DNA of 64,000 bases from Verrucomicrobiota bacterium (GTDB lineage Bacteria > Verrucomicrobiota > Verrucomicrobiia > Limisphaerales > J093), in NCBI GenBank assembly GCA_022710935.1, contig JAKLFY010000010.1:19562-83561 (forward strand), read 5' to 3'. Positions within the stretch are counted from its first letter, which is position 1. Each line of letters opens with the position of its first letter. The notes beneath the pieces are model-generated. The model saw only the letters and a list, made by a program, of their open reading frames with translations. It made no database searches and was not told the DNA's origin. Below, piece by piece: positions 57,298 to 64,000 of the stretch. The position numbers were made by a program, and so were the translations under genes.

Positions 57298-59193
57298 ATG
57301 TTAGGTGCGAAATCATTCCTCTGTATCGATTTCGGCGCAGGCAGCCTGAAGCTGGCCGAATTCGATGTGGGTGACTCCGGCGCTCTGCGCCTGGTCCGGT
57401 ATGCCCTCAAGCCGCTCGGGTTGGCCGGCGCTCAGGACGCCGCGCGCGAAGGTGTCGTGCTGCGCGGCCTCCAGGAGCTGTTGTCCGACAAGTCGATCGC
57501 GGCCCGGACCTGCAACGTCTGCGCCCCGGGCTTCCACGTCTTTTCGAAGTTCGTCAAGCTGCCCCCTGTCGATTCGTCCAAGATCGGCCAAATCATCCAG
57601 TACGAGGCCCAGCAGAACGTCCCCTTCCCGCTCGAAGAGGTGGTCTGGGATTACCAGATCCTGGGCACATTGCCCTCGGGCGAACTCGAAGTGCTCCTGG
57701 TCGCCATCAAGTCCGACGTCGTCGAGTCCCTCTTCCGGTCGGCGGAAGGGGTGGGTCTGCGGCTCGAACTGGTGGATGCGTCGCCGGCGGCCTTGTGCAA
57801 CGCCTTCCGCTACAACTACGGCGACCTGGAAGGGTGCTCGATGCTGCTGGACATCGGGGCAAAGACCAGCAACGTGCTGTTCTTCGACAAGGGCAAGGTC
57901 TTCTCCCGAAGCATCAACATCGGCGCCAACTCGATCACACAGGAGTTTGCGGCCGAAGCCAAGCTCCCGTTCGTCGAGGCGGAGAAACTGAAGATCGCGG
58001 AAGGGTTTGTCAGCCTGGGTGGCGCGTACGAGGAGCCCGACAACCCGCGGCAGGCTGCCATTTCGAAGATCGCCCGGCAGGTGATGACCCGGCTTCACAT
58101 CCAGGTCAATCAGACGATCCAGTTCTTCCGCAGCCAGCAGGGCGGAACGGCCCCTCAGCGGGTCTACCTGGCAGGCGGCGCGTCGATCATGCCCTACACG
58201 CGCGAGTTCTTTCAGGAAAAGCTCAACATCACCGTCGAGTATTTCAACCCCTTCCGCAACATCGAGATCGATCCGGGCGTCAACCTCGAGGAGTTGGCCA
58301 AGGTCGCGCATGCCTACGGCGAGGTGGTCGGACTCGGATTGCGCAATCCGACCCAGTGTCCCGTCGAGCTCAATCTCATCCCCAAGAGCATTCTCAAGCG
58401 CCAGGAACTCAACCAGAAGAAGCCGTATTTCATCGCCGCCGCCGCCAGTCTGATCCTCGTCGTCTTCATCTTTGGCTGGTTTTTCGACAAGCTGGCCAAG
58501 GAAAAACAGGGGGCCATCGATGCCCGCGCCCCGAAAGTCGAGGGGCTGCGGATGAAGAAGCAGGCCCTCGACACGGCAATCGCGAGCAAGGACAAGTCGT
58601 TCAAGGAGGCCGAGCAGTATGCCGAGTGGATGTCGGAACGCTTCCGCTGGGCGGATATCATGACCGCTTTGGACCAGGCGCTCCGGAACACTGAGAACAG
58701 CACCCGCCGTCCCAACATGCGCACGGCGGTTTGGATCGAGAAGATGGCGGCCGAGAACGCGGAGGTTCCCGAAGCGGAGGCCCAGGAAGAAGATGAGAAT
58801 CGCCCCCGCCCCATGATGGACATTCGCATGCTGATGCGCTACGGGTTGTTGCCGAGGGGTTTGAAGCTGACGACCGAAGGCGGGGAGAAGATGGATATCG
58901 CGTCCGCCCTTGCCTCGGCCCAGCGGGGAGGCGCTGAGACCCAGACCAAACAGGCATCGACCAACGAGATTTCGGTGATCAATCTGACCTGTCGCGGACT
59001 GAGCTGGAACAAGTTGTTTGCGACCGCTGACAACGAGCTGGCCTACACACTGCTCAGGGAGTTGGAGGCCAACTCGCAGTTCATGGCCGGGACCAACGGG
59101 ACGCAATTGGCTGGGCAGATGGAACAGGACGAGACCACCAGCACGTTCAAGTTCGACGTCAAACTGAAGCTCGCGAAGCCCATCAGATTCTAA
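57298..59193 (+). CDS. PilM-like actin-fold ATPase fused to a PilN-like TM/periplasmic segment (Amuc_1101-like)
   Basis: Actin-fold motifs FLCIDFGAGSLKLA, LLDIGAKTSNVLF and YLAGGAS. After about 355 aa comes LNLIPKSILKRQELNQKKPYFIAAAASLILVVFIFGWFF (PilN-type TM), then coiled-coil and acidic regions. Confidence 0.8.
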   Translation: MLGAKSFLCIDFGAGSLKLAEFDVGDSGALRLVRYALKPLGLAGAQDAAREGVVLRGLQELLSDKSIAARTCNVCAPGFHVFSKFVKLPPVDSSKIGQIIQYEAQQNVPFPLEEVVWDYQILGTLPSGELEVLLVAIKSDVVESLFRSAEGVGLRLELVDASPAALCNAFRYNYGDLEGCSMLLDIGAKTSNVLFFDKGKVFSRSINIGANSITQEFAAEAKLPFVEAEKLKIAEGFVSLGGAYEEPDNPRQAAISKIARQVMTRLHIQVNQTIQFFRSQQGGTAPQRVYLAGGASIMPYTREFFQEKLNITVEYFNPFRNIEIDPGVNLEELAKVAHAYGEVVGLGLRNPTQCPVELNLIPKSILKRQELNQKKPYFIAAAASLILVVFIFGWFFDKLAKEKQGAIDARAPKVEGLRMKKQALDTAIASKDKSFKEAEQYAEWMSERFRWADIMTALDQALRNTENSTRRPNMRTAVWIEKMAAENAEVPEAEAQEEDENRPRPMMDIRMLMRYGLLPRGLKLTTEGGEKMDIASALASAQRGGAETQTKQASTNEISVINLTCRGLSWNKLFATADNELAYTLLRELEANSQFMAGTNGTQLAGQMEQDETTSTFKFDVKLKLAKPIRF

Positions 59194-59194
59194 T

Positions 59195-60325
59195 ATGGAC
59201 TGGGTCAAGAAGAACTTGCTGCTGGTCGTGAGTGGGGCCGTCACGCTCGTGCTCCTGGGCGTTGCGGGGTACTTCCTCTGGTCGAAGCACACGCTCGAGG
59301 CGCGGGTCACCGAGGACCTTGCGACGCAGACCAGTGAGTTGAACCAGTTGTCCAACTCGGATCCCCACCCCGGAAACGAGAAAGTCAAGAACATCGAAGC
59401 CGCCAAGGAGCAGGACAAGAAGCTCCAGGAATTCGTGGCCGAGGCCCGAAAGACCTTCGTCCCCATCGAGTATCCGACCAATCTCGACAGCGGCCAGTTG
59501 AAGCTCCTGCTCGATACCGTCATCGATGAATTGCACCGGAAGGCGGACGGCATGGGTGTGAAGCTGCAGTCAGATCCGAAATACGCGTTCACGTTCGGCG
59601 CGCAGCGCACACAGATGTACTTCGACCAGAAGGACATACTGCCGACCGCCCGCATGATGGTCGACATCAAGACGATCGCCACGATGCTCTTCGACGCCCG
59701 CGTCCTCGCTCTCGATGGGATTCGCCGTTGCACGGTCAGCAGCCTGGACACGCCCGGCGCGGAGTTCTGGAACAAGAAGCCGACCACCAACGACACGTAC
59801 GGTGCAGTGCTGACCCCGTACGAGTTCACCTTCCATTGCTTCACTCCCGAGCTCAACCGCGTGGTCGAAAGCCTCTACCGCAGTCCACACGCCTTTCTGC
59901 TCAAGAGTGTCGTCGTGGACACCTCGCCCTCCCAATTGCTCGAGAGGCCGGCCGACGGCTCAGCCGAGCCGATGGGTCCCATGATGATGCCCGGCATGAA
60001 CATGGCGCAACTGCAGATGATGTTGCGATACGGGGGGCGCGGCGCCATGCGCTATGCCACTCCGCCACCCCAGGAGGTGCCCCCGCCCACAGCCCGCGGC
60101 GGTCTGACTCCCCTGCTCGACGAGAAGCCGTTCCGCGCCGTGCTCTGGGTTGAGTCGGTTCGTCTTTTGGATCCCGAGGAAATCAAGGCAGCAAAGGCGG
60201 CCGCGCGCACGAGCCGGCCCGTCCGCGCCGTGACTCCCGAAGGGGGAGAGCCGGGCGCGGATCCGACCGCAACCGGGGGCGAGACCCCCGCCGAACCCGC
60301 TCCGGACGCTCCCCCCGTTCCCTAG
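59195..60325 (+). CDS. Pilus-system membrane protein, Amuc_1100-like / PilO-position (tentative)
   Basis: N-terminal TM helix (LLLVVSGAVTLVLLGVAGYFLW), a coiled-coil, a globular domain and a Pro/Ala-rich tail. Its position between the pilM-like and secretin genes matches the Akkermansia Amuc_1101-1100-1099-1098 order. Similarity was judged by architecture only. Confidence 0.45.
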   Translation: MDWVKKNLLLVVSGAVTLVLLGVAGYFLWSKHTLEARVTEDLATQTSELNQLSNSDPHPGNEKVKNIEAAKEQDKKLQEFVAEARKTFVPIEYPTNLDSGQLKLLLDTVIDELHRKADGMGVKLQSDPKYAFTFGAQRTQMYFDQKDILPTARMMVDIKTIATMLFDARVLALDGIRRCTVSSLDTPGAEFWNKKPTTNDTYGAVLTPYEFTFHCFTPELNRVVESLYRSPHAFLLKSVVVDTSPSQLLERPADGSAEPMGPMMMPGMNMAQLQMMLRYGGRGAMRYATPPPQEVPPPTARGGLTPLLDEKPFRAVLWVESVRLLDPEEIKAAKAAARTSRPVRAVTPEGGEPGADPTATGGETPAEPAPDAPPVP

Positions 60326-60337
60326 CCGCATTCCGCC

Positions 60338-61129
60338 ATGGAGTTTCTTAAGAAGCATTACGAGAAGCTGATTCTCAGCGTGGTGTTGCTGGGAATGGCC
60401 ATCGCCGCCGCGCTCCTGCCTCTCAAGGTCAGCCAGGTCCGGCAAGAACTCCAGCAGGCGACCCTCAATATCGAACGCGCCCGCATCAAGCCCCTCCCGG
60501 AGTTGGACCTCTCGACGAACAACGCCCTGTTGCGACGGGTCCGGACCCCGGGCCGGCTGACCCTCGATGCCCCCGGCCACAACCTTTTCAACCCCATCCA
60601 GTGGAAGAAGAAGCCGGACGGCACCCCGGTGCCCAGCGAACAGTTCGGTTTGAGCGCCCTCGCGGTGACGAACATCACGCCGCTCTATCTGAGAATCCAG
60701 TTCCGGGGCGTGCGCGACTACGGCAGCGACGTTCGCTACGACTTCATGATCACACGCGAGGCCGCCACCAACAACGCGGCGCGCGGCCCATTGCCCAACA
60801 CGCTGGCCGTGGGCGCCAGAACCGACCTCTTTACCGTCAAGGACGTGGATGGACCGAAGGAGAATCCGCAGGGGATCATTCTCGAACTGGCCGACTCGCG
60901 GCAGCCGGTGGTCGTGACGCGCGACAAACCATACACCGAGGTGCAGGGTCACACGGCCGATTTCTGGCACAAAACCGAGAATAAGGTCTTCCTCCGACAG
61001 CGCCAGGGACAGAAGATTTCCTTTGGCGGTGAAACCTACAATATTATTGCCATCAGCGAAAGCGACGTTACACTCCGAGACAGCCGGACTCAAAAGCAGA
61101 CAACCATCAGTCTTACAGCGGCGCCGTAG
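60338..61129 (+). CDS. Pilus-system membrane protein, Amuc_1099-like / PilP-position (tentative)
   Basis: N-terminal TM helix (LILSVVLLGMAIAAALLPL) and a beta-rich C-terminal domain. The call is based on position. Confidence 0.4.
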   Translation: MEFLKKHYEKLILSVVLLGMAIAAALLPLKVSQVRQELQQATLNIERARIKPLPELDLSTNNALLRRVRTPGRLTLDAPGHNLFNPIQWKKKPDGTPVPSEQFGLSALAVTNITPLYLRIQFRGVRDYGSDVRYDFMITREAATNNAARGPLPNTLAVGARTDLFTVKDVDGPKENPQGIILELADSRQPVVVTRDKPYTEVQGHTADFWHKTENKVFLRQRQGQKISFGGETYNIIAISESDVTLRDSRTQKQTTISLTAAP

Positions 61130-61142
61130 GTAATGCGACTTT

Positions 61143-63584
61143 ATGTTCCCTGTCCCAACTGAAGACAAATCCATGATCCGTTCAGCTTTTACCCTCCTCA
61201 CCCTCGCGCTGCTGGTTGGCAGCGCGCATTCCGCGTTCGCTCAAGTCGCTCCGGCGGATCCCGTCACGGAGGAGGCGGTGCGAAGGCAGGAAATGAGCAT
61301 CATTCTCCGCAAGACGCTGGCCGACGCCCAAGCCGAGCAGAAGCTCGGCGACTACGGAACCGCGGCCAAGCTTTATGAGGAGGCCTGGGGCTACGTCCGG
61401 AACATCGGCGAGACGGTTATCGAAAAGGAGTATCGGGAGACGGTCCAGGGTTTCAGCCACGTCTACCTCGAACTCGCGAAAAAATCCTATTCCCGCGGAC
61501 AATACAACGAAGCCAAGAGCCAGGTCTCCCGCGTGCTGCGGGTCGATCCCAAGAACCGCGACGCCCTGAACCTCGCCGCGAGTGTTGACAAGGCCCTCAA
61601 GGCGCAGGAAGGGCGCGTCCCGAGCAAGGAGACGCAGGCGCTTTTGTCGGAAGTGCAGAGTGAAAAGACGACCGCCGCAACCCTGGTGCAGGACGGCAAG
61701 TTGCTCTATGAAATGGGGAGGCTTGAAGAGGCCGCGGACAAGTTGCGGGAGGCCGTCAAACTCGATCCGCAGAACCAGGGGGCGTTCTACTACGCGCGGC
61801 TGGTCGAGGAGGCCGTGTATTCAATCGAGGCGCGCAAGCGGGAGGCGATGGCGAAGTGGAAGATGGTCGAGGTCGAGCGCGCATGGAATCCGCCCTTGAA
61901 GTGGGGCAACATCACGAATACCACAAACCCCTTCGCCCGCACGAACACGATCTATACCGGGGCCGGTCGGCGCGTCATCTTCAATAAGCTCGAAAAGATC
62001 CGGTTCAATCAATACCCCGTCAGCGGCGATATGCCGGGCGTCCCGTTGAGCGTGGTGGTGAAGGACCTGGACGAGGAGGTGAAGCAGCGCGATCCCGACA
62101 AGAAAGGCCTCAACTTCATCCTGGCTCCATACGTGGACATTCAGACCGCTTCGGCCCTCCCGATGATGCCCGGCCAGATCGATCCCATGACCGGCCAGCC
62201 GATCGGCACGGCTCCCCAGCAGGAACAGTTCGACCTGGGTTCGGATGTGTTGATCAAGATCGAGCCTCCCTTGAAGGACGTCCGGTTGATGGACGTGCTC
62301 GATACGATCATCAAAGTGTCGAACAAGCAGATCAAGTACTCGGTTGAAGACTACGCCATCGTGTTCACGCGCAAGATTCCCGAGCAGGAACAGCTCTTCA
62401 CCCGCCAGTTCCGCGTGAACCCCAACACGTTCGTGCAGGGCCTCGAAGGCGTGATCGGTGAGCAGTTCGTCGGGGCGTCCATCAGTTCCGATTCCAGCGG
62501 CACGGGAACAACCGGCGGCGGCGGAATGATGGGCGGCATGAGCGGTGGGATGAGCGGCGGCTACGGTGGTGGTGGCGGTTACATGATCCCGCGCGTCGAC
62601 GTCACCGGCTATGGCGGTATGAGCGGCATGGGCGGCATGGGGGGCATGGGCGGCATGGGCGGCGGCATGATGGGCGGCAGTGGGGGCATGGGCGGCGGAA
62701 TGATGGGGGGCATGGGCGGCGGAATGATGGGCGGCATGGGCGGCGGCTCGCCAATGGGCTATATGTCCACCGGCGGCTCGCTGATGGGTGTCAACCGCAT
62801 GACCGACATGTCCGTGGTCAACCAGATGGTGGTCGCCTATTTCAGCGCCGCGGGCGTGAACCTCGGCGGCTCGAACCTGCTGGCTGGTGGCGGAATGATG
62901 GGCGGCATGGGCGGCGGGTTCACCGGAGGCGGCTTCCAGAACTCGGCGGGCAAGTCGGTCTTTTACAATGACCGCCTCGGGCTCCTGCTGGTGCGCGCCA
63001 CGCTCCAGGATCTCGACATCATCGAGGCGGCTATCCAGGTCCTCAACCTCACGCCCGACCAGATCACGATCGAGGCGAAGTTTGTCGAGATTGGGCAAGA
63101 CGATGCGAAGGCCCTCGGGTTTGATTGGCTGCTAGGTAATTTCTTGATGAGAGGAGGAGGCATTGGGCTTTCTGGCGGCACCTATCCCTCCGTCGCTGGC
63201 GAGCCGTCACAGGCCAACCCGTCCGGCGTCTTCCCAGGTGTTTTCGGAGTCCCATCGGCGCTCCCCAATTCAGGGACCGACCAGATTCTCACGCAGGGCC
63301 TGCGCAACAGTGATGCCGAAGGATCGCCCATACCGGCGATCGGCACCATCACAGGCATTCTGACCGATCCGCAATTCCGCGTCGTGATCCGGGCGCTCGA
63401 ACAGCGCTCCGGCGTCGATATGTTGGCGTCGCCCAAGGTGACGACCGTCAGTGGACGACAGGCCCAGATCCAGAGCGTCGATATTCGCCAGATTGTCACC
63501 GGGCTCGACGTTGGAACCAGCGGCGCGGGTGGGGCGGTGAGCACATCAACCGGCACAACCGGCACGACCGGCACAGTTCAGTAG
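61143..63584 (+). CDS. Secretin, N-terminal part: TPR-like region, Gly/Met-rich tract, secretin-N domain and first half of the secretin domain
   Basis: Signal peptide (MIRSAFTLLTLALLVGSAHSAFAQ from the ATG at 61173 or 61143). Secretin-N-like NDRLGLLLVRATLQDLDIIEAAIQVLN and the secretin-domain start VDMLASPKVTTVSGRQAQIQS. The ORF ends at a TAG after (TGT)3VQ. Confidence 0.8.
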   Translation: MFPVPTEDKSMIRSAFTLLTLALLVGSAHSAFAQVAPADPVTEEAVRRQEMSIILRKTLADAQAEQKLGDYGTAAKLYEEAWGYVRNIGETVIEKEYRETVQGFSHVYLELAKKSYSRGQYNEAKSQVSRVLRVDPKNRDALNLAASVDKALKAQEGRVPSKETQALLSEVQSEKTTAATLVQDGKLLYEMGRLEEAADKLREAVKLDPQNQGAFYYARLVEEAVYSIEARKREAMAKWKMVEVERAWNPPLKWGNITNTTNPFARTNTIYTGAGRRVIFNKLEKIRFNQYPVSGDMPGVPLSVVVKDLDEEVKQRDPDKKGLNFILAPYVDIQTASALPMMPGQIDPMTGQPIGTAPQQEQFDLGSDVLIKIEPPLKDVRLMDVLDTIIKVSNKQIKYSVEDYAIVFTRKIPEQEQLFTRQFRVNPNTFVQGLEGVIGEQFVGASISSDSSGTGTTGGGGMMGGMSGGMSGGYGGGGGYMIPRVDVTGYGGMSGMGGMGGMGGMGGGMMGGSGGMGGGMMGGMGGGMMGGMGGGSPMGYMSTGGSLMGVNRMTDMSVVNQMVVAYFSAAGVNLGGSNLLAGGGMMGGMGGGFTGGGFQNSAGKSVFYNDRLGLLLVRATLQDLDIIEAAIQVLNLTPDQITIEAKFVEIGQDDAKALGFDWLLGNFLMRGGGIGLSGGTYPSVAGEPSQANPSGVFPGVFGVPSALPNSGTDQILTQGLRNSDAEGSPIPAIGTITGILTDPQFRVVIRALEQRSGVDMLASPKVTTVSGRQAQIQSVDIRQIVTGLDVGTSGAGGAVSTSTGTTGTTGTVQ

Positions 63585-63612
63585 CTCGATCCACACGAAT
63601 TCCTACACAGTT

Positions 63613-64000
63613 ATGCATACAAGGCACATTCTCTTCGCCGCCGTGGCGGTCTGCGGTTTGGGAGGTCTGTTGGTCGGGCGCGCCCAGGTGGTCAATCAGG
63701 CGGCCGCAGTCTCCCAAGTCCAACCCACCACTGTTCCTGTTCCCCTCGGGCCTACCCTGGACGTGCTGCCCCACGTCTCCGCCGATGGATACACGATTCA
63801 GATGAATCTGATCCCCACCATGACGGAGTTTCTGGGCTACGAGGAAACCGCCTACACCGCCCAGGTCGGCGACATCAACACCCTCCCCTATCCGCTGCCG
63901 TCCTTCCGGGTCCGGCAGGTGACAACCACGGCGATTGTCTGGGACGGCCAGACCATCATGCTCGGCGGGCTGATCAGCGAGAAGGTGAACAAGGTCAAGG
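63613..64000 (+). CDS. Secretin-domain C-terminal half as a separate ORF with its own signal peptide (partial, runs off the window)
   Basis: ATG at 63613 gives MHTRHILFAAVAVCGLGGLLVGRAQ. It continues ...PTLDVLPHVSADGYTIQMNLIPT...PSFRVRQVTTTAIVWDGQTIMLGGLISEK, matching the second half of the secretin domain (G.L.V.P.I..DG...L.I...; R.....V.V.DG.T.V.GGL). It is in a different frame from the upstream ORF. Confidence 0.7.
   Translation, partial: MHTRHILFAAVAVCGLGGLLVGRAQVVNQAAAVSQVQPTTVPVPLGPTLDVLPHVSADGYTIQMNLIPTMTEFLGYEETAYTAQVGDINTLPYPLPSFRVRQVTTTAIVWDGQTIMLGGLISEKVNKVK

What the first reader, a model, noticed from the sequence alone, without database searches (positions are those of the whole stretch)
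63400..64000. Secretin domain split mid-domain into two ORFs, the downstream half carrying its own signal peptide
Seen in sequence: the 813-aa secretin ORF ends at TAG 63582-63584, just after the first conserved block of the secretin domain (LASPKVTTVSGRQAQIQSVDIRQIV) and a (TGT)3 tract. A 28-nt, noticeably AT-richer spacer follows. A new ORF in another frame then starts at ATG 63613 with MHTRHILFAAVAVCGLGGLLVGRAQ, a positively charged n-region plus a hydrophobic core. It continues with the missing second half of the secretin domain (PTLDVLPHVSADGYTIQMNLIPT...FRVRQVTTTAIVWDGQTIMLGGLISEK). The downstream frame is closed by a TGA at 63538 and has no alternative start before 63613. A simple frameshift repair would place a hydrophobic helix inside a beta-barrel domain. 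Inference: either a naturally bipartite secretin assembled from two exported polypeptides, which would be unusual, or a recent disruption or assembly error.
Basis: partly seen in the sequence, partly recalled or inferred. Interest (0 to 1): 0.65.

Follow-up and report, generated by a model that had tools for sequence, protein, structure and literature searches.

The report
Naturally two-gene secretin, cut at gate
The outer-membrane pilus channel protein (secretin) of this Verrucomicrobiota bacterium is really encoded as two adjacent genes, each with its own export signal. The break falls at the tip of the channel's central gate loop and is conserved and under selection in dozens of related species, so it is a natural two-piece secretin, not an error.

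Summary
ORF1 (61143-63584, 813 aa) ends just after Pfam Secretin positions 1-46. A 28-nt spacer follows. ORF2 starts at ATG 63613 with a Sec-type signal peptide and carries Secretin positions 47-169.

It is not an assembly error or a recent disruption:
- About half of the 80 best GTDB species representatives, and at least 120 protein clusters, have the same two-gene layout.
- The stop codon varies (TAA/TAG/TGA), the spacer runs from -4 to 63 nt, and all three frame offsets occur. That excludes recoding.
- ORF2 has dN/dS of 0.05-0.09 among close relatives.
- Synteny is constant: PilM-like, Amuc_1100-like, a ~265-aa gene, ORF1, ORF2, 5'-3' exonuclease.

The other relatives, which share the 907-aa TPR-plus-secretin architecture published for Akkermansia PilQ Amuc_1098, have one gene with a long G/T-rich loop at this spot.

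Alignment to V. cholerae GspD places the cut between the two pivot positions of the central gate (Gate 1). An AlphaFold model of an unsplit homologue shows a disordered hairpin tip there.

Best reading: two separately exported polypeptides co-assemble by beta-strand complementation into a secretin whose gate hairpin is nicked.

The only split secretin I found in the literature, rhizobial RhcC1/RhcC2, is cut between domains, not inside the barrel domain. I rate this a new variant of a known kind, of moderate to high interest.

The parts
57298..59193 (+). PilM-like gene (631 aa), first gene of the conserved pilus-type cluster (context)
   Evidence: ORF listed. It is 70% identical over 98% of its length to the L001 gene that carries PilM_2/FtsA Pfam hits.
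59195..60325 (+). 376-aa gene, counterpart of the Amuc_1100-like (PF28028) gene of related loci (context)
   Evidence: 49% identical to the L001 373-aa gene annotated PF28028. The local Pfam copy gave no hit for it.
60338..61129 (+). 263-aa conserved gene of unknown family immediately upstream of ORF1 (context)
   Evidence: 51% identical over its full length to the L001 264-aa gene. It holds the same position in all loci examined.
61143..63584 (+). ORF1, the N-terminal secretin polypeptide (813 aa). It contains a signal peptide, TPR region, G/M-rich linker, N-domains, the first half of the secretin barrel domain, the ascending arm of the central-gate hairpin and a G/T-rich tail.
   Evidence: TPR families; Secretin positions 1-46 at aa 751-796. 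Homologues ending at the same point.
61143..61241 (+). Predicted Sec signal peptide of ORF1 (MFPVPTEDKSMIRSAFTLLTLALLVGSAHSAFA | QVAP)
   Evidence: Read from the translation: a hydrophobic core followed by A-F-A. No signal-peptide predictor was available, so this is inferred.
61347..61796 (+). TPR repeat region of ORF1 (aa 69-218)
   Evidence: Pfam TPR_2, TPR_11, TPR_14 and TPR_19 hits.
62484..62762 (+). Extreme G/M-rich low-complexity stretch of ORF1 (aa 448-540, 73% Gly+Met). A second short stretch lies at 62877-62939.
   Evidence: The corresponding region of the unsplit homologue model has pLDDT below 50.
62961..63479 (+). N3-like domain and first half of the secretin C-domain, up to the position that aligns with the first gate pivot (V779, 63477-63479)
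   Evidence: Alignments to V. cholerae GspD (5wq8/5wq9), where V779 aligns with G453. Strand pattern in the AF2 model of P0009. Coordinates.
63480..63581 (+). Ascending arm of the central-gate (Gate 1) hairpin plus the G/T-rich C-terminal tail of ORF1 (34 aa: DIRQIVTGLDVGTSGAGGAVSTSTGTTGTTGTVQ)
   Evidence: Among split relatives the tail after the pivot has a median length of 35 aa (range 25-53).
63582..63584 (+). TAG stop codon of ORF1
   Evidence: Orthologues use TAA, TAG or TGA at this point.
63585..63612 (+). 28-nt intercistronic spacer, 46% G+C, with no promoter-like or terminator-like site
   Evidence: Spacers in orthologues range from -4 to 63 nt.
63613..63684 (+). Sec-type signal peptide of ORF2 (MHTRHILFAAVAVCGLGGLLVGRA), with predicted cleavage after G-R-A
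   Evidence: All 32 split loci scored (31 fetched loci, some near-identical, plus the window) have K/R before a hydrophobic core (10-residue Kyte-Doolittle mean at least 2.1). A small-residue/Q motif follows, then V-V-Q/N-Q in most. The Cys is not conserved, so this is not a lipoprotein signal.
63685..63747 (+). Mature N-terminus of ORF2, the descending arm of the central-gate hairpin (QVVNQAAAVSQVQPTTVPVPL, 21 aa), ending just before the second pivot Gly (G46, 63748-63750)
   Evidence: Profile alignment pairs 'plGPtLDViP' with GspD 'EVGIKLKVVP'. The 21-aa distance is the median and minimum across split loci, range 21-40.
63748..64000 (+). Rest of ORF2 as far as the window reaches (aa 46-129 of 195): remaining inner- and outer-barrel strands of the secretin domain
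   Evidence: Pfam Secretin positions 46-129 in the window part and 47-169 in the full 195-aa protein from L023.

Best explanation
This is a genuine two-gene, PilQ-type secretin of a type IV pilus-like machine.

**The two products**
- ORF1 contains a signal peptide, TPR region, N-domains and roughly the first half of the strands of the secretin barrel domain.
- ORF2 contains its own signal peptide and the second half of those strands.
- The two genes are adjacent and co-transcribed.

**Proposed mechanism (inferred)**
- Each product is exported by Sec and cleaved by signal peptidase I.
- In the periplasm or outer membrane the two fragments pair by beta-strand complementation into one pseudo-subunit.
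- About 12-15 such pairs build the usual double-walled barrel.

**Where the break lies**
- The chain break is at the tip of the central-gate (Gate 1) hairpin. This loop points to the middle of the pore and is disordered in solved secretins.
- The break should therefore be structurally tolerated.
- It leaves a gate whose two arms are not covalently joined. ORF1's flexible G/T-rich tail and ORF2's conserved QVV(N/Q)Q N-terminus would meet at the pore centre.

**Shown versus inferred**
- Shown: the complementary halves, the conserved signal peptide, separate cistrons, deep conservation, purifying selection, and the position of the cut relative to the gate pivots.
- Inferred: export, cleavage site, co-assembly, and any effect on gating.
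For: **Complementary halves**
- ORF1 matches Secretin model positions 1-46 and ORF2 matches 47-169.

**Conservation**
- Many of the 120 best ORF1 homologues (40-67% identity, from several sources) end at the same point, in a G/T-rich tail.
- Loci L001, L003, L004 and L007 carry a downstream 194-217-aa Secretin gene in the same synteny.
- About 40 of 80 GTDB species-representative loci are split in the same way.
- All 120 listed hits to ORF2 are stand-alone proteins of 182-219 aa.

**Separate cistrons, not recoding**
- Stop codons are TAA, TAG or TGA. Spacers run from -4 to 63 nt. Frame offsets of 0, 1 and 2 all occur.
- There is no promoter-like or terminator-like site between the ORFs.

**Signal peptide**
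- All 32 split loci scored (31 fetched loci, some near-identical, plus the window) have a charged n-region, a hydrophobic core and a small-residue cleavage motif.

**Selection**
- ORF2 dN/dS is 0.05-0.09 at dS 0.2-0.9.

**Independent assemblies**
- L020, L021 and L023 (92-99% nt identity to the window) all have the same kind of junction: TAG, a 28-nt spacer and frame offset +1.

**Position in the fold**
- ORF1's last conserved block aligns to V. cholerae GspD 437-461, and V779 aligns with pivot G453. ORF2's G46 aligns with the Gly of 'EVGIKL' (G481 by my count).
- The central gate lies between two conserved Gly pivots and its tip is poorly ordered (PMC10550240; PMC8563730).
- In the AF2 model of unsplit P0009, strands 746-760 and 785-808 flank a coil at 761-783 with pLDDT below 50, exactly where relatives are cut.
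- That model matches solved secretins at Foldseek E 1e-19 to 1e-10.

**A real free terminus**
- Two ORF1 homologues carry an extra Peptidase_S74 domain after the tail, with ORF2 still a separate gene. ORF1's C-terminus can therefore accept an added module.
Against: - There is no direct evidence here (proteomics, structure, genetics) that both polypeptides are made, exported and assembled together.
- No signal-peptide predictor was available. The cleavage site is read from the conserved A-x-A/Q pattern.
- No obvious Shine-Dalgarno sequence precedes ORF2 in the window or in the spacers I read, so the mode of translation initiation is unknown.
- The first pivot position is Val, not Gly, in this family. 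The gate may therefore not hinge as it does in GspD or pIV.
- The AF2 model is a monomer with pTM 0.38 and says nothing about the oligomer.
- The same-species assembly L023 has four 1-nt deletions inside ORF1. This shows that assemblies of this gene can contain errors, although none lies at the junction.
Confidence: 0.8

Rival explanations
1. Assembly or sequencing error, or a very recent disruption (pseudogene), of a normally single secretin gene.
For: Single-ORF orthologues of 890-1030 aa exist. The same-species MAG L023 shows four 1-nt deletions elsewhere in ORF1, so errors do occur in this gene.
Against: - The same split, with a signal peptide, is found in about 40 species-level genomes and at least 120 protein clusters from NCBI, JGI, ENA and Logan.
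- The three closest relatives (L020, L021, L023) have the same TAG stop, 28-nt spacer and frame offset, and L023 is identical to the window over its last 500 nt.
- ORF2 dN/dS is 0.05-0.09.
- No indel repair gives a sensible protein, because about 95 nt of stop, spacer and signal peptide are extra relative to unsplit genes.
Confidence: 0.02
2. One polypeptide is made after all, by programmed recoding across the junction (frameshift, stop-codon readthrough or ribosomal bypass).
For: In some species (L001, L004/L006, L009) ORF2 is in frame with ORF1 and only one stop separates them. The spacers are short.
Against: - Frame offset is 0, 1 or 2, the stop codon is TAA, TAG or TGA, and spacer length runs from -4 to 63 nt in different species. 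No single recoding signal can be conserved.
- The bypassed or read-through segment has the conserved physico-chemical profile of a Sec signal peptide in every species. That makes sense only if it is an N-terminus.
- A fused product would place about 24 hydrophobic residues in the gate loop.
Confidence: 0.03
3. Both genes are real, but they do not rebuild one secretin subunit. For example, ORF2 alone forms a minimal channel while ORF1 acts as a separate TPR scaffold or pilotin-like accessory. Alternatively, one of the two has lost its function in channel formation.
For: ORF2 holds the most conserved part of the domain, at 108.7 bits against 16.3 bits for ORF1's part. In rhizobia an N-domain protein (RhcC1) and a complete secretin (RhcC2) are separate proteins.
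Against: - ORF2 lacks Secretin positions 1-46 and everything before them. By the strand order of the AF2 model and of pIV, this includes the first outer-barrel strands, the beta-lip and the first inner-barrel strand.
- ORF1 keeps exactly those segments, well conserved (SGRQAQIQ block), in every split lineage.
- The two genes are always adjacent and in the same order.
- The mature ORF2 N-terminus keeps a near-constant 21 aa before the second pivot. This suggests it still forms the descending gate arm paired with ORF1's ascending arm.
Confidence: 0.12

Closest known systems
Akkermansia muciniphila PilQ (Amuc_1098) and the unsplit Verrucomicrobiota TPR-secretins
   Same: Same architecture when ORF1 and ORF2 are joined: N-terminal TPR region plus C-terminal secretin domain. 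Amuc_1098 is published as 907 residues, with TPR at 71-239 and the secretin domain at 650-876, and is the most abundant outer-membrane protein (PMC4960237). Unsplit homologues of the window protein (890-1030 aa, 40-57% identity) sit in the same gene cluster, with PilM-like and Amuc_1100-like genes.
   Different: Those proteins are single polypeptides with a continuous G/T-rich gate loop of median 47 aa. Here the loop is interrupted by a stop, a spacer and a second signal peptide. I did not compare directly with the Amuc_1098 sequence itself.
Rhizobial Rhc type III secretion 'split secretin' RhcC1 (NolW) / RhcC2 (Y4xJ)
   Same: This is a secretin function encoded by two genes. It is recognised in the literature as a distinguishing feature of a whole clade, and its significance is unknown (PMC3574062, PMC3973906).
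   Different: - On pNGR234a, NolW (234 aa) has only N0 and Secretin_N domains.
- Y4xJ (475 aa) has a complete Secretin domain (model positions 1-169) plus its own N-terminal domains.
- That split is therefore between domains, and the two genes lie about 12 kb apart.
- Here the cut is inside the barrel-forming domain (model position 46/47), the genes are adjacent, and the system is of the type IV pilus kind.
Central gate (Gate 1) of canonical secretins (GspD, XcpD, PilQ, InvG, phage pIV)
   Same: The cut maps between the positions aligned with the two gate pivots (V. cholerae GspD G453 and, by my count, G481). This hairpin has a poorly ordered tip that closes the pore (PMC8563730, PMC10550240). 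An unsplit homologue has the secretin fold (Foldseek E 1e-19).
   Different: The loop between the pivots is about twice as long in this family (41-63 aa, against 27 counted in GspD and about 29 in XcpD and pIV). The first pivot is Val rather than Gly. In the split lineages the hairpin is not a covalent loop at all.

Membership tests
Secretin superfamily (Pfam PF00263 C-domain) | Full-length match to the Secretin domain model | tested here: met
   Met only by the two ORFs together. ORF1 aa 751-796 matches model positions 1-46 at 16.3 bits, below the 27.5-bit cut-off on its own. ORF2 aa 33-167 matches positions 47-169 at 108.7 bits.
Secretin superfamily (Pfam PF00263 C-domain) | Secretin three-dimensional fold (double beta-sheet subunit with gate hairpins) | tested here: met
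   The AF2 model of unsplit homologue P0009 matches GspD, PilQ, InvG, RcpA and pIV chains at Foldseek E 1e-19 to 1e-10, probability 1.0. This was tested on the homologue, not on the split pair.
Secretin superfamily (Pfam PF00263 C-domain) | Export to the periplasm through an N-terminal signal peptide | tested here: inconclusive
   Both ORFs begin with an n-region, a hydrophobic core and a small-residue motif. No dedicated predictor or experiment was available.
Secretin superfamily (Pfam PF00263 C-domain) | Assembly into a 12-15-mer outer-membrane ring | not testable with these tools
   Needs biochemistry or cryo-EM.
Verrucomicrobiota TPR-PilQ family (Amuc_1098-like) in a type IV pilus-like cluster | N-terminal TPR region fused to secretin N- and C-domains | tested here: met
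   TPR families match at ORF1 aa 69-218. Homologues with the same architecture appear (P0009).
Verrucomicrobiota TPR-PilQ family (Amuc_1098-like) in a type IV pilus-like cluster | Synteny with PilM-like and Amuc_1100-like genes | tested here: met
   The three ORFs upstream of ORF1 in the window are 70%, 49% and 51% identical to the PilM_2/FtsA gene, the PF28028 gene and the 264-aa gene of L001.
Rhizobial RhcC1/RhcC2 split secretin | N-domain protein plus a second protein with a complete secretin domain, within a T3SS cluster | tested here: not met
   RhcC2 carries Secretin model positions 1-169, whereas ORF2 here carries only 47-169. No T3SS genes are nearby, and the context is pilus-type.
Programmed ribosomal frameshift / readthrough gene | Conserved frame relation and recoding signal at the junction | tested here: not met
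   Frame offsets of 0, 1 and 2 occur, all three stop codons are used, and spacers range from -4 to 63 nt among orthologues.
Pseudogene / disrupted gene | Relaxed selection and sporadic, non-conserved disruption | tested here: not met
   ORF2 dN/dS is 0.05-0.09. The same break point is found in whole clades.

The most novel reading that the evidence does not exclude
The nick in the central gate is an adaptive design rather than a tolerated accident. Fission, or re-fusion, at exactly this loop has happened repeatedly in Verrucomicrobiota: about 10 state changes on a neighbour-joining tree. It always leaves 21 or more residues (21 in most loci) before the second pivot.

The result would be a secretin whose gate arms belong to different chains. 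ORF1's free G/T-rich tail would act as a flexible plug or as an attachment point. In two lineages that tail even carries a self-cleaving Peptidase_S74 trimerisation module. This would be a gating and assembly mode not seen in any studied secretin.
Probability: 0.25. Interest if true: 0.8.

Novelty: new variant of a known kind. Interest (0 to 1): 0.62.

Why it matters
Secretins are the giant gated outer-membrane channels of type II and type III secretion, type IV pili and filamentous phage export. All structurally studied ones are homo-oligomers of one chain.

A natural version with these properties would be useful in several ways:
- **Assembly.** Each subunit is made from two separately exported chains, so it is a ready-made fragment-complementation system for studying how secretin barrels fold and insert.
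- **Gating.** The covalent link at the gate tip is absent. This asks whether the continuity of the Gate 1 hairpin matters for sealing and opening.
- **Annotation.** In current records the first half is named 'TPR protein' or 'hypothetical' and the second a short 'GspD'. Pilus and secretion systems of many environmental Verrucomicrobiota are therefore likely mis-scored as lacking a complete secretin.

The family includes the relatives of Akkermansia PilQ, the most abundant outer-membrane protein of a medically important gut bacterium.

Tried and rejected
- **Exact look-up of ORF1.** An exact-sequence look-up in the contig index found nothing. I reached related loci through homologues instead.
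- **Lipoprotein reading of ORF2.** The window sequence has VAVC, but the -1 residue is atypical and the Cys is absent in orthologues. Rejected.
- **Recoding and bypass.** Rejected because frames, stops and spacers vary.
- **Rhizobial split as the same phenomenon.** Two regions of pNGR234a were read in vain before nolW and y4xJ were found. Pfam then showed that split is between domains.
- **Direction of change.** I aligned the junction DNA of the nearest unsplit gene (P0009, L094) to split L026. It shows only a ~95-nt indel with no recognisable homology, so direction is unresolved.
- **Amuc_1100 family.** The local Pfam copy does not detect it in the window's 376-aa protein. The link rests on 49% identity to a gene annotated PF28028 elsewhere.
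- **Literature.** Searches for a split PilQ-type secretin returned nothing relevant. One search was malformed.
- **Trees.** The neighbour-joining trees have no support values. I use them only qualitatively.


Full report
**1. The observation**

- ORF1 runs 61143..63584 (813 aa) and ends ...VTTVSGRQAQIQSVDIRQIVTGLDVGTSGAGGAVSTSTGTTGTTGTVQ, followed by TAG at 63582-63584.
- A 28-nt spacer follows. It is 46% G+C, against 62% in both ORFs.
- ORF2 begins at ATG 63613, one frame over, with MHTRHILFAAVAVCGLGGLLVGRAQVVNQ..., and runs off the end of the window.
- ORF2's frame is closed upstream by TGA at 63538. None of the 24 codons between that stop and 63613 is ATG, GTG or TTG.
- The Pfam Secretin model (169 positions) matches ORF1 aa 751-796 at positions 1-46. 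It matches the window's part of ORF2 at positions 46-129.
- The full ORF2 (195 aa) was recovered from locus L023, a genome of the same species. L023 is 99.3% identical over ORF1 and identical over the last 500 nt of the window. The full ORF2 covers positions 47-169.

The two ORFs are therefore complementary, non-overlapping halves of one domain.

**2. The split is conserved, not an artefact**

*Protein homologues of ORF1.* A search returned 223 homologues. Among the 120 listed, many at 40-67% identity are 720-840 aa long and end at the same place, after the SGRQ.Q block and a short G/T-rich tail. They come from NCBI, JGI, ENA and Logan. The others are 890-1030 aa single proteins with a whole secretin domain.

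*Contigs for split homologues.* I fetched contigs for four split homologues of different similarity. Each showed the same gene order: PilM_2/FtsA-like, Amuc_1100-like (PF28028), a ~265-aa gene, ORF1, a 194-217-aa 'Secretin' gene, and a 5'-3' exonuclease. The three ORFs upstream of ORF1 in the window are 70%, 49% and 51% identical to the first three of these.

*Species representatives.* A scan of one genome per GTDB species found 575 relatives of the C-terminal half.
- Of the best 80, a first automated parse called 36 of 87 loci held at that point (80 scan loci plus seven fetched earlier) split and 40 unsplit, with 11 unresolved.
- By eye, several of the unresolved loci are also split. So are L022 and L025, whose ORF2 frame happens to stay open upstream.
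- The result is roughly half and half.

*Protein homologues of ORF2.* Searching with ORF2 gave 251 hits. All 120 listed are stand-alone proteins of 182-219 aa, at 51-97% identity.

**3. Two separate cistrons**

- Across species the ORF1 stop is TAA, TAG or TGA.
- The spacer ranges from -4 to 63 nt.
- ORF2 lies in frame 0, +1 or +2 relative to ORF1.

No frameshift, readthrough or bypass signal could be conserved under those conditions. There is no promoter-like or terminator-like site between the ORFs in the window, so they are probably co-transcribed.

All 32 split loci scored (31 fetched loci, some near-identical, plus the window) begin ORF2 with the same features:
- one to five K/R residues;
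- a hydrophobic core (best 10-residue Kyte-Doolittle mean 2.1-3.3);
- a small-residue motif, after which most read Q-V-V-(Q/N)-Q.

The Cys in the window's signal peptide is not conserved, so a lipoprotein signal is unlikely. ORF1 has its own signal-peptide-like N-terminus.

**4. Selection**

Between L023 and relatives at dS 0.2-0.9, ORF2 has dN/dS 0.05-0.09. At greater distances it is 0.11-0.23. The signal-peptide codons change faster but keep their character. This is a working gene, not a decaying fragment.

For contrast, the same-species MAG L023 has four 1-nt deletions inside ORF1, at window positions 62680, 62705, 63120 and 63246. These break that ORF in that assembly only. Real sequencing or assembly frameshifts in this gene look like that: single-base, private to one assembly, and away from the junction.

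**5. Where the cut lies in the fold**

*Alignment to solved secretins.*
- A single-sequence search and a profile search against solved structures align ORF1's last conserved block with V. cholerae GspD residues 437-461. ORF1 V779 falls on G453.
- The G453A mutant entry 5wq9 differs from 5wq8 at exactly that column.
- ORF2's invariant 'LGPTLDV' aligns with GspD 'EVGIKLKV'.

*What the literature says about this region.*
- The central gate of secretins lies between two conserved glycine pivots.
- It is formed by a hairpin that reaches the pore centre.
- Its tip is poorly ordered in all maps: XcpD 466-496, and pIV Gly267-Gly297 with residues 275-289 unseen (PMC10550240; PMC8563730).

*Loop lengths.*
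- In unsplit members of this family the segment between the pivot positions is 41-63 aa (median 47) and G/T-rich. By my count it is 27 aa in GspD.
- In split members ORF1 keeps a median of 35 aa after the first pivot.
- Mature ORF2 keeps 21 aa before the second pivot in most loci (median and minimum 21, range 21-40).

*Structure prediction.*
- An AlphaFold2 model of the unsplit homologue P0009 (57-sequence alignment; mean pLDDT 69, pTM 0.38) shows strands 746-760 and 785-808.
- Between them is a coil at 761-783 with pLDDT below 50. This is the stretch that aligns with the stop, spacer and signal peptide of split relatives.
- The model matches GspD, PilQ, InvG, RcpA and pIV chains at Foldseek E 1e-19 to 1e-10.

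*Division of the barrel.* By the model's strand order, which agrees with the order described for pIV, the halves divide as follows.
- ORF1 supplies the first outer-barrel strands, the lip, the first inner-barrel strand and the ascending gate arm.
- ORF2 supplies the descending arm, the remaining inner-barrel strands with Gate 2, and the last outer-barrel strands.

Neither half looks able to form the barrel alone.

**6. Most likely mechanism**

Shown:
- two adjacent genes;
- complementary domain halves;
- a conserved signal peptide on each;
- purifying selection;
- a cut at a disordered hairpin tip.

Inferred:
- Both products cross the inner membrane by Sec and are cleaved, ORF2 probably after G-R-A at residue 24.
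- The two fragments then associate through the inter-strand hydrogen bonding that normally holds the subunit's sheets together.
- These pairs oligomerise into a normal double-walled ring.

The gate would then be built from two unlinked arms. ORF1's flexible G/T tail and ORF2's conserved QVV(N/Q)Q end would meet at the pore centre. Whether this changes gating is unknown. I give 0.8 to the two-chain secretin reading overall.

**7. Rivals**

- *Assembly error or recent disruption (0.02).* Contradicted by sections 2-4.
- *Recoding (0.03).* Contradicted by section 3.
- *Real but functionally separate proteins (0.12).* This cannot be excluded without biochemistry. It fits poorly with the strict adjacency of the genes. 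It also fits poorly with ORF1 retaining exactly the missing strands, and with the near-constant length of ORF2's gate arm.

**8. Evolution**

Neighbour-joining trees place split genes in several separate clades, interleaved with unsplit ones.
- One tree used 336 columns around the junction.
- The other used 695 columns of the ORF1 part, for 164 sequences.
- There is one large clade containing the window, a second of at least nine species, and several smaller ones.
- Fitch parsimony on the second tree needs about 10 changes.
- The unsplit pair P0009/P0016 is nested inside the window's split clade.

The trees have no support values, and the direction of change (repeated fission or repeated re-fusion) is not resolved. 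Aligning the P0009 gene to the split L026 locus shows only a ~95-nt indel. Some unsplit proteins already have V-(V/N)-Q-(Q/A) at the corresponding loop position. That motif therefore does not prove a single origin.

**9. Comparison with what is known**

- *Akkermansia PilQ (Amuc_1098).* It is published as an unsplit 907-residue TPR-secretin (PMC4960237). It has the same architecture as the unsplit homologues here. I did not compare its sequence directly.
- *Rhizobial RhcC1/RhcC2.* The only 'split secretin' I found in the literature is this pair from rhizobial-type T3SS (PMC3574062, PMC3973906).
  - I read both genes on pNGR234a.
  - NolW (234 aa) has only N0 and Secretin_N domains.
  - Y4xJ (475 aa) has a complete Secretin domain plus its own N-domains.
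  - The genes lie about 12 kb apart.
  - That is a between-domain split, which is different in kind from the mid-domain cut seen here.
- *Other searches.* Three further full-text searches found no report of a split PilQ-type secretin. The library does not hold most subscription-journal papers, so absence there is not proof.

**10. Verdict**

- The finding is real.
- It is a new variant of a known kind: a secretin of the Verrucomicrobiota TPR-PilQ family encoded as two exported polypeptides cut at the central-gate tip.
- Interest is 0.62. A secretin specialist would be surprised, and the system offers a natural handle on secretin assembly and gating. The components themselves are familiar, and the functional consequence is untested.

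Noticed in passing
L092:5001-7775 (P0005) and L093:5001-7544 (P0081): Two ORF1 homologues from different split clades carry a C-terminal Peptidase_S74 domain directly after the G/T-rich tail. This is the 'chaperone of endosialidase' domain, the self-cleaving intramolecular chaperone of phage tailspikes. It scores 35 and 47 bits against a cut-off of 22, and the Ser-Lys motif T|SDRNVK is present. ORF2 still follows as a separate gene. Self-cleavage would leave ORF1 ending in the same kind of tail. A trimerisation module in a secretin gate loop is unexplained.
   Followed up: partly
window 62484-62762 and 62877-62939: ORF1 contains an extreme Gly/Met-rich low-complexity stretch (aa 448-540, 73% G+M, for example GGMMGGMSGGMSGG...GMGGMGGMGGMGGGMMGG), plus a second shorter one. 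Homologues have G-rich stretches at the same place. In the AF2 model of P0009 this region has pLDDT below 50. Its function is unknown.
   Followed up: no
L023 versus window 62680, 62705, 63120, 63246: The GTDB representative of the same species (JAXGQW010000013.1, isolate AnMBR.bin335, 99.3% identical over ORF1) has four single-base deletions inside ORF1. These break the reading frame in that assembly. The window's ORF1 is intact. They are probably assembly or sequencing errors in the MAG.
   Followed up: partly
L008, L009, L011, L013, L015, L019, L021, L024, L027 (locus starts): Many related contigs end 0.1-1.5 kb upstream of ORF2, that is, inside ORF1. One possible cause is that the G-rich repeat region of ORF1 is a frequent assembly break point. 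If so, ORF1 would be under-represented as a complete gene in metagenome assemblies.
   Followed up: no
whole family; window 63477-63750: The segment between the two gate-pivot positions is about twice as long in this Verrucomicrobiota family as in solved secretins. It is 41-63 aa in unsplit members, against 27 counted in GspD and about 29 in XcpD and pIV. The first pivot is Val or another residue instead of the conserved Gly.
   Followed up: partly
L042, L045, L076, L079: Four MAGs titled 'Akkermansia muciniphila isolate ...' carry this locus, one split and three unsplit. They share only 62-73% identity with the query in the conserved C-terminal half and fall in different clades of the tree. 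The organism labels look unreliable.
   Followed up: no
downstream of ORF2 in L001, L003, L004, L007, L092, L094: In most loci examined, split or unsplit, a 5'-3' exonuclease gene (5_3_exonuc_N/5_3_exonuc) directly follows the secretin gene or genes. L093 is an exception. This may be conserved neighbourhood without an obvious functional link.
   Followed up: no
window 61821-63098 (- strand) and 59960-61201 (- strand): Long antisense ORFs of 425 and 413 aa overlap ORF1 and the upstream genes. Their translations are low-complexity (H/A/R-rich). They are most likely by-products of the high G+C content (64%) rather than genes.
   Followed up: no
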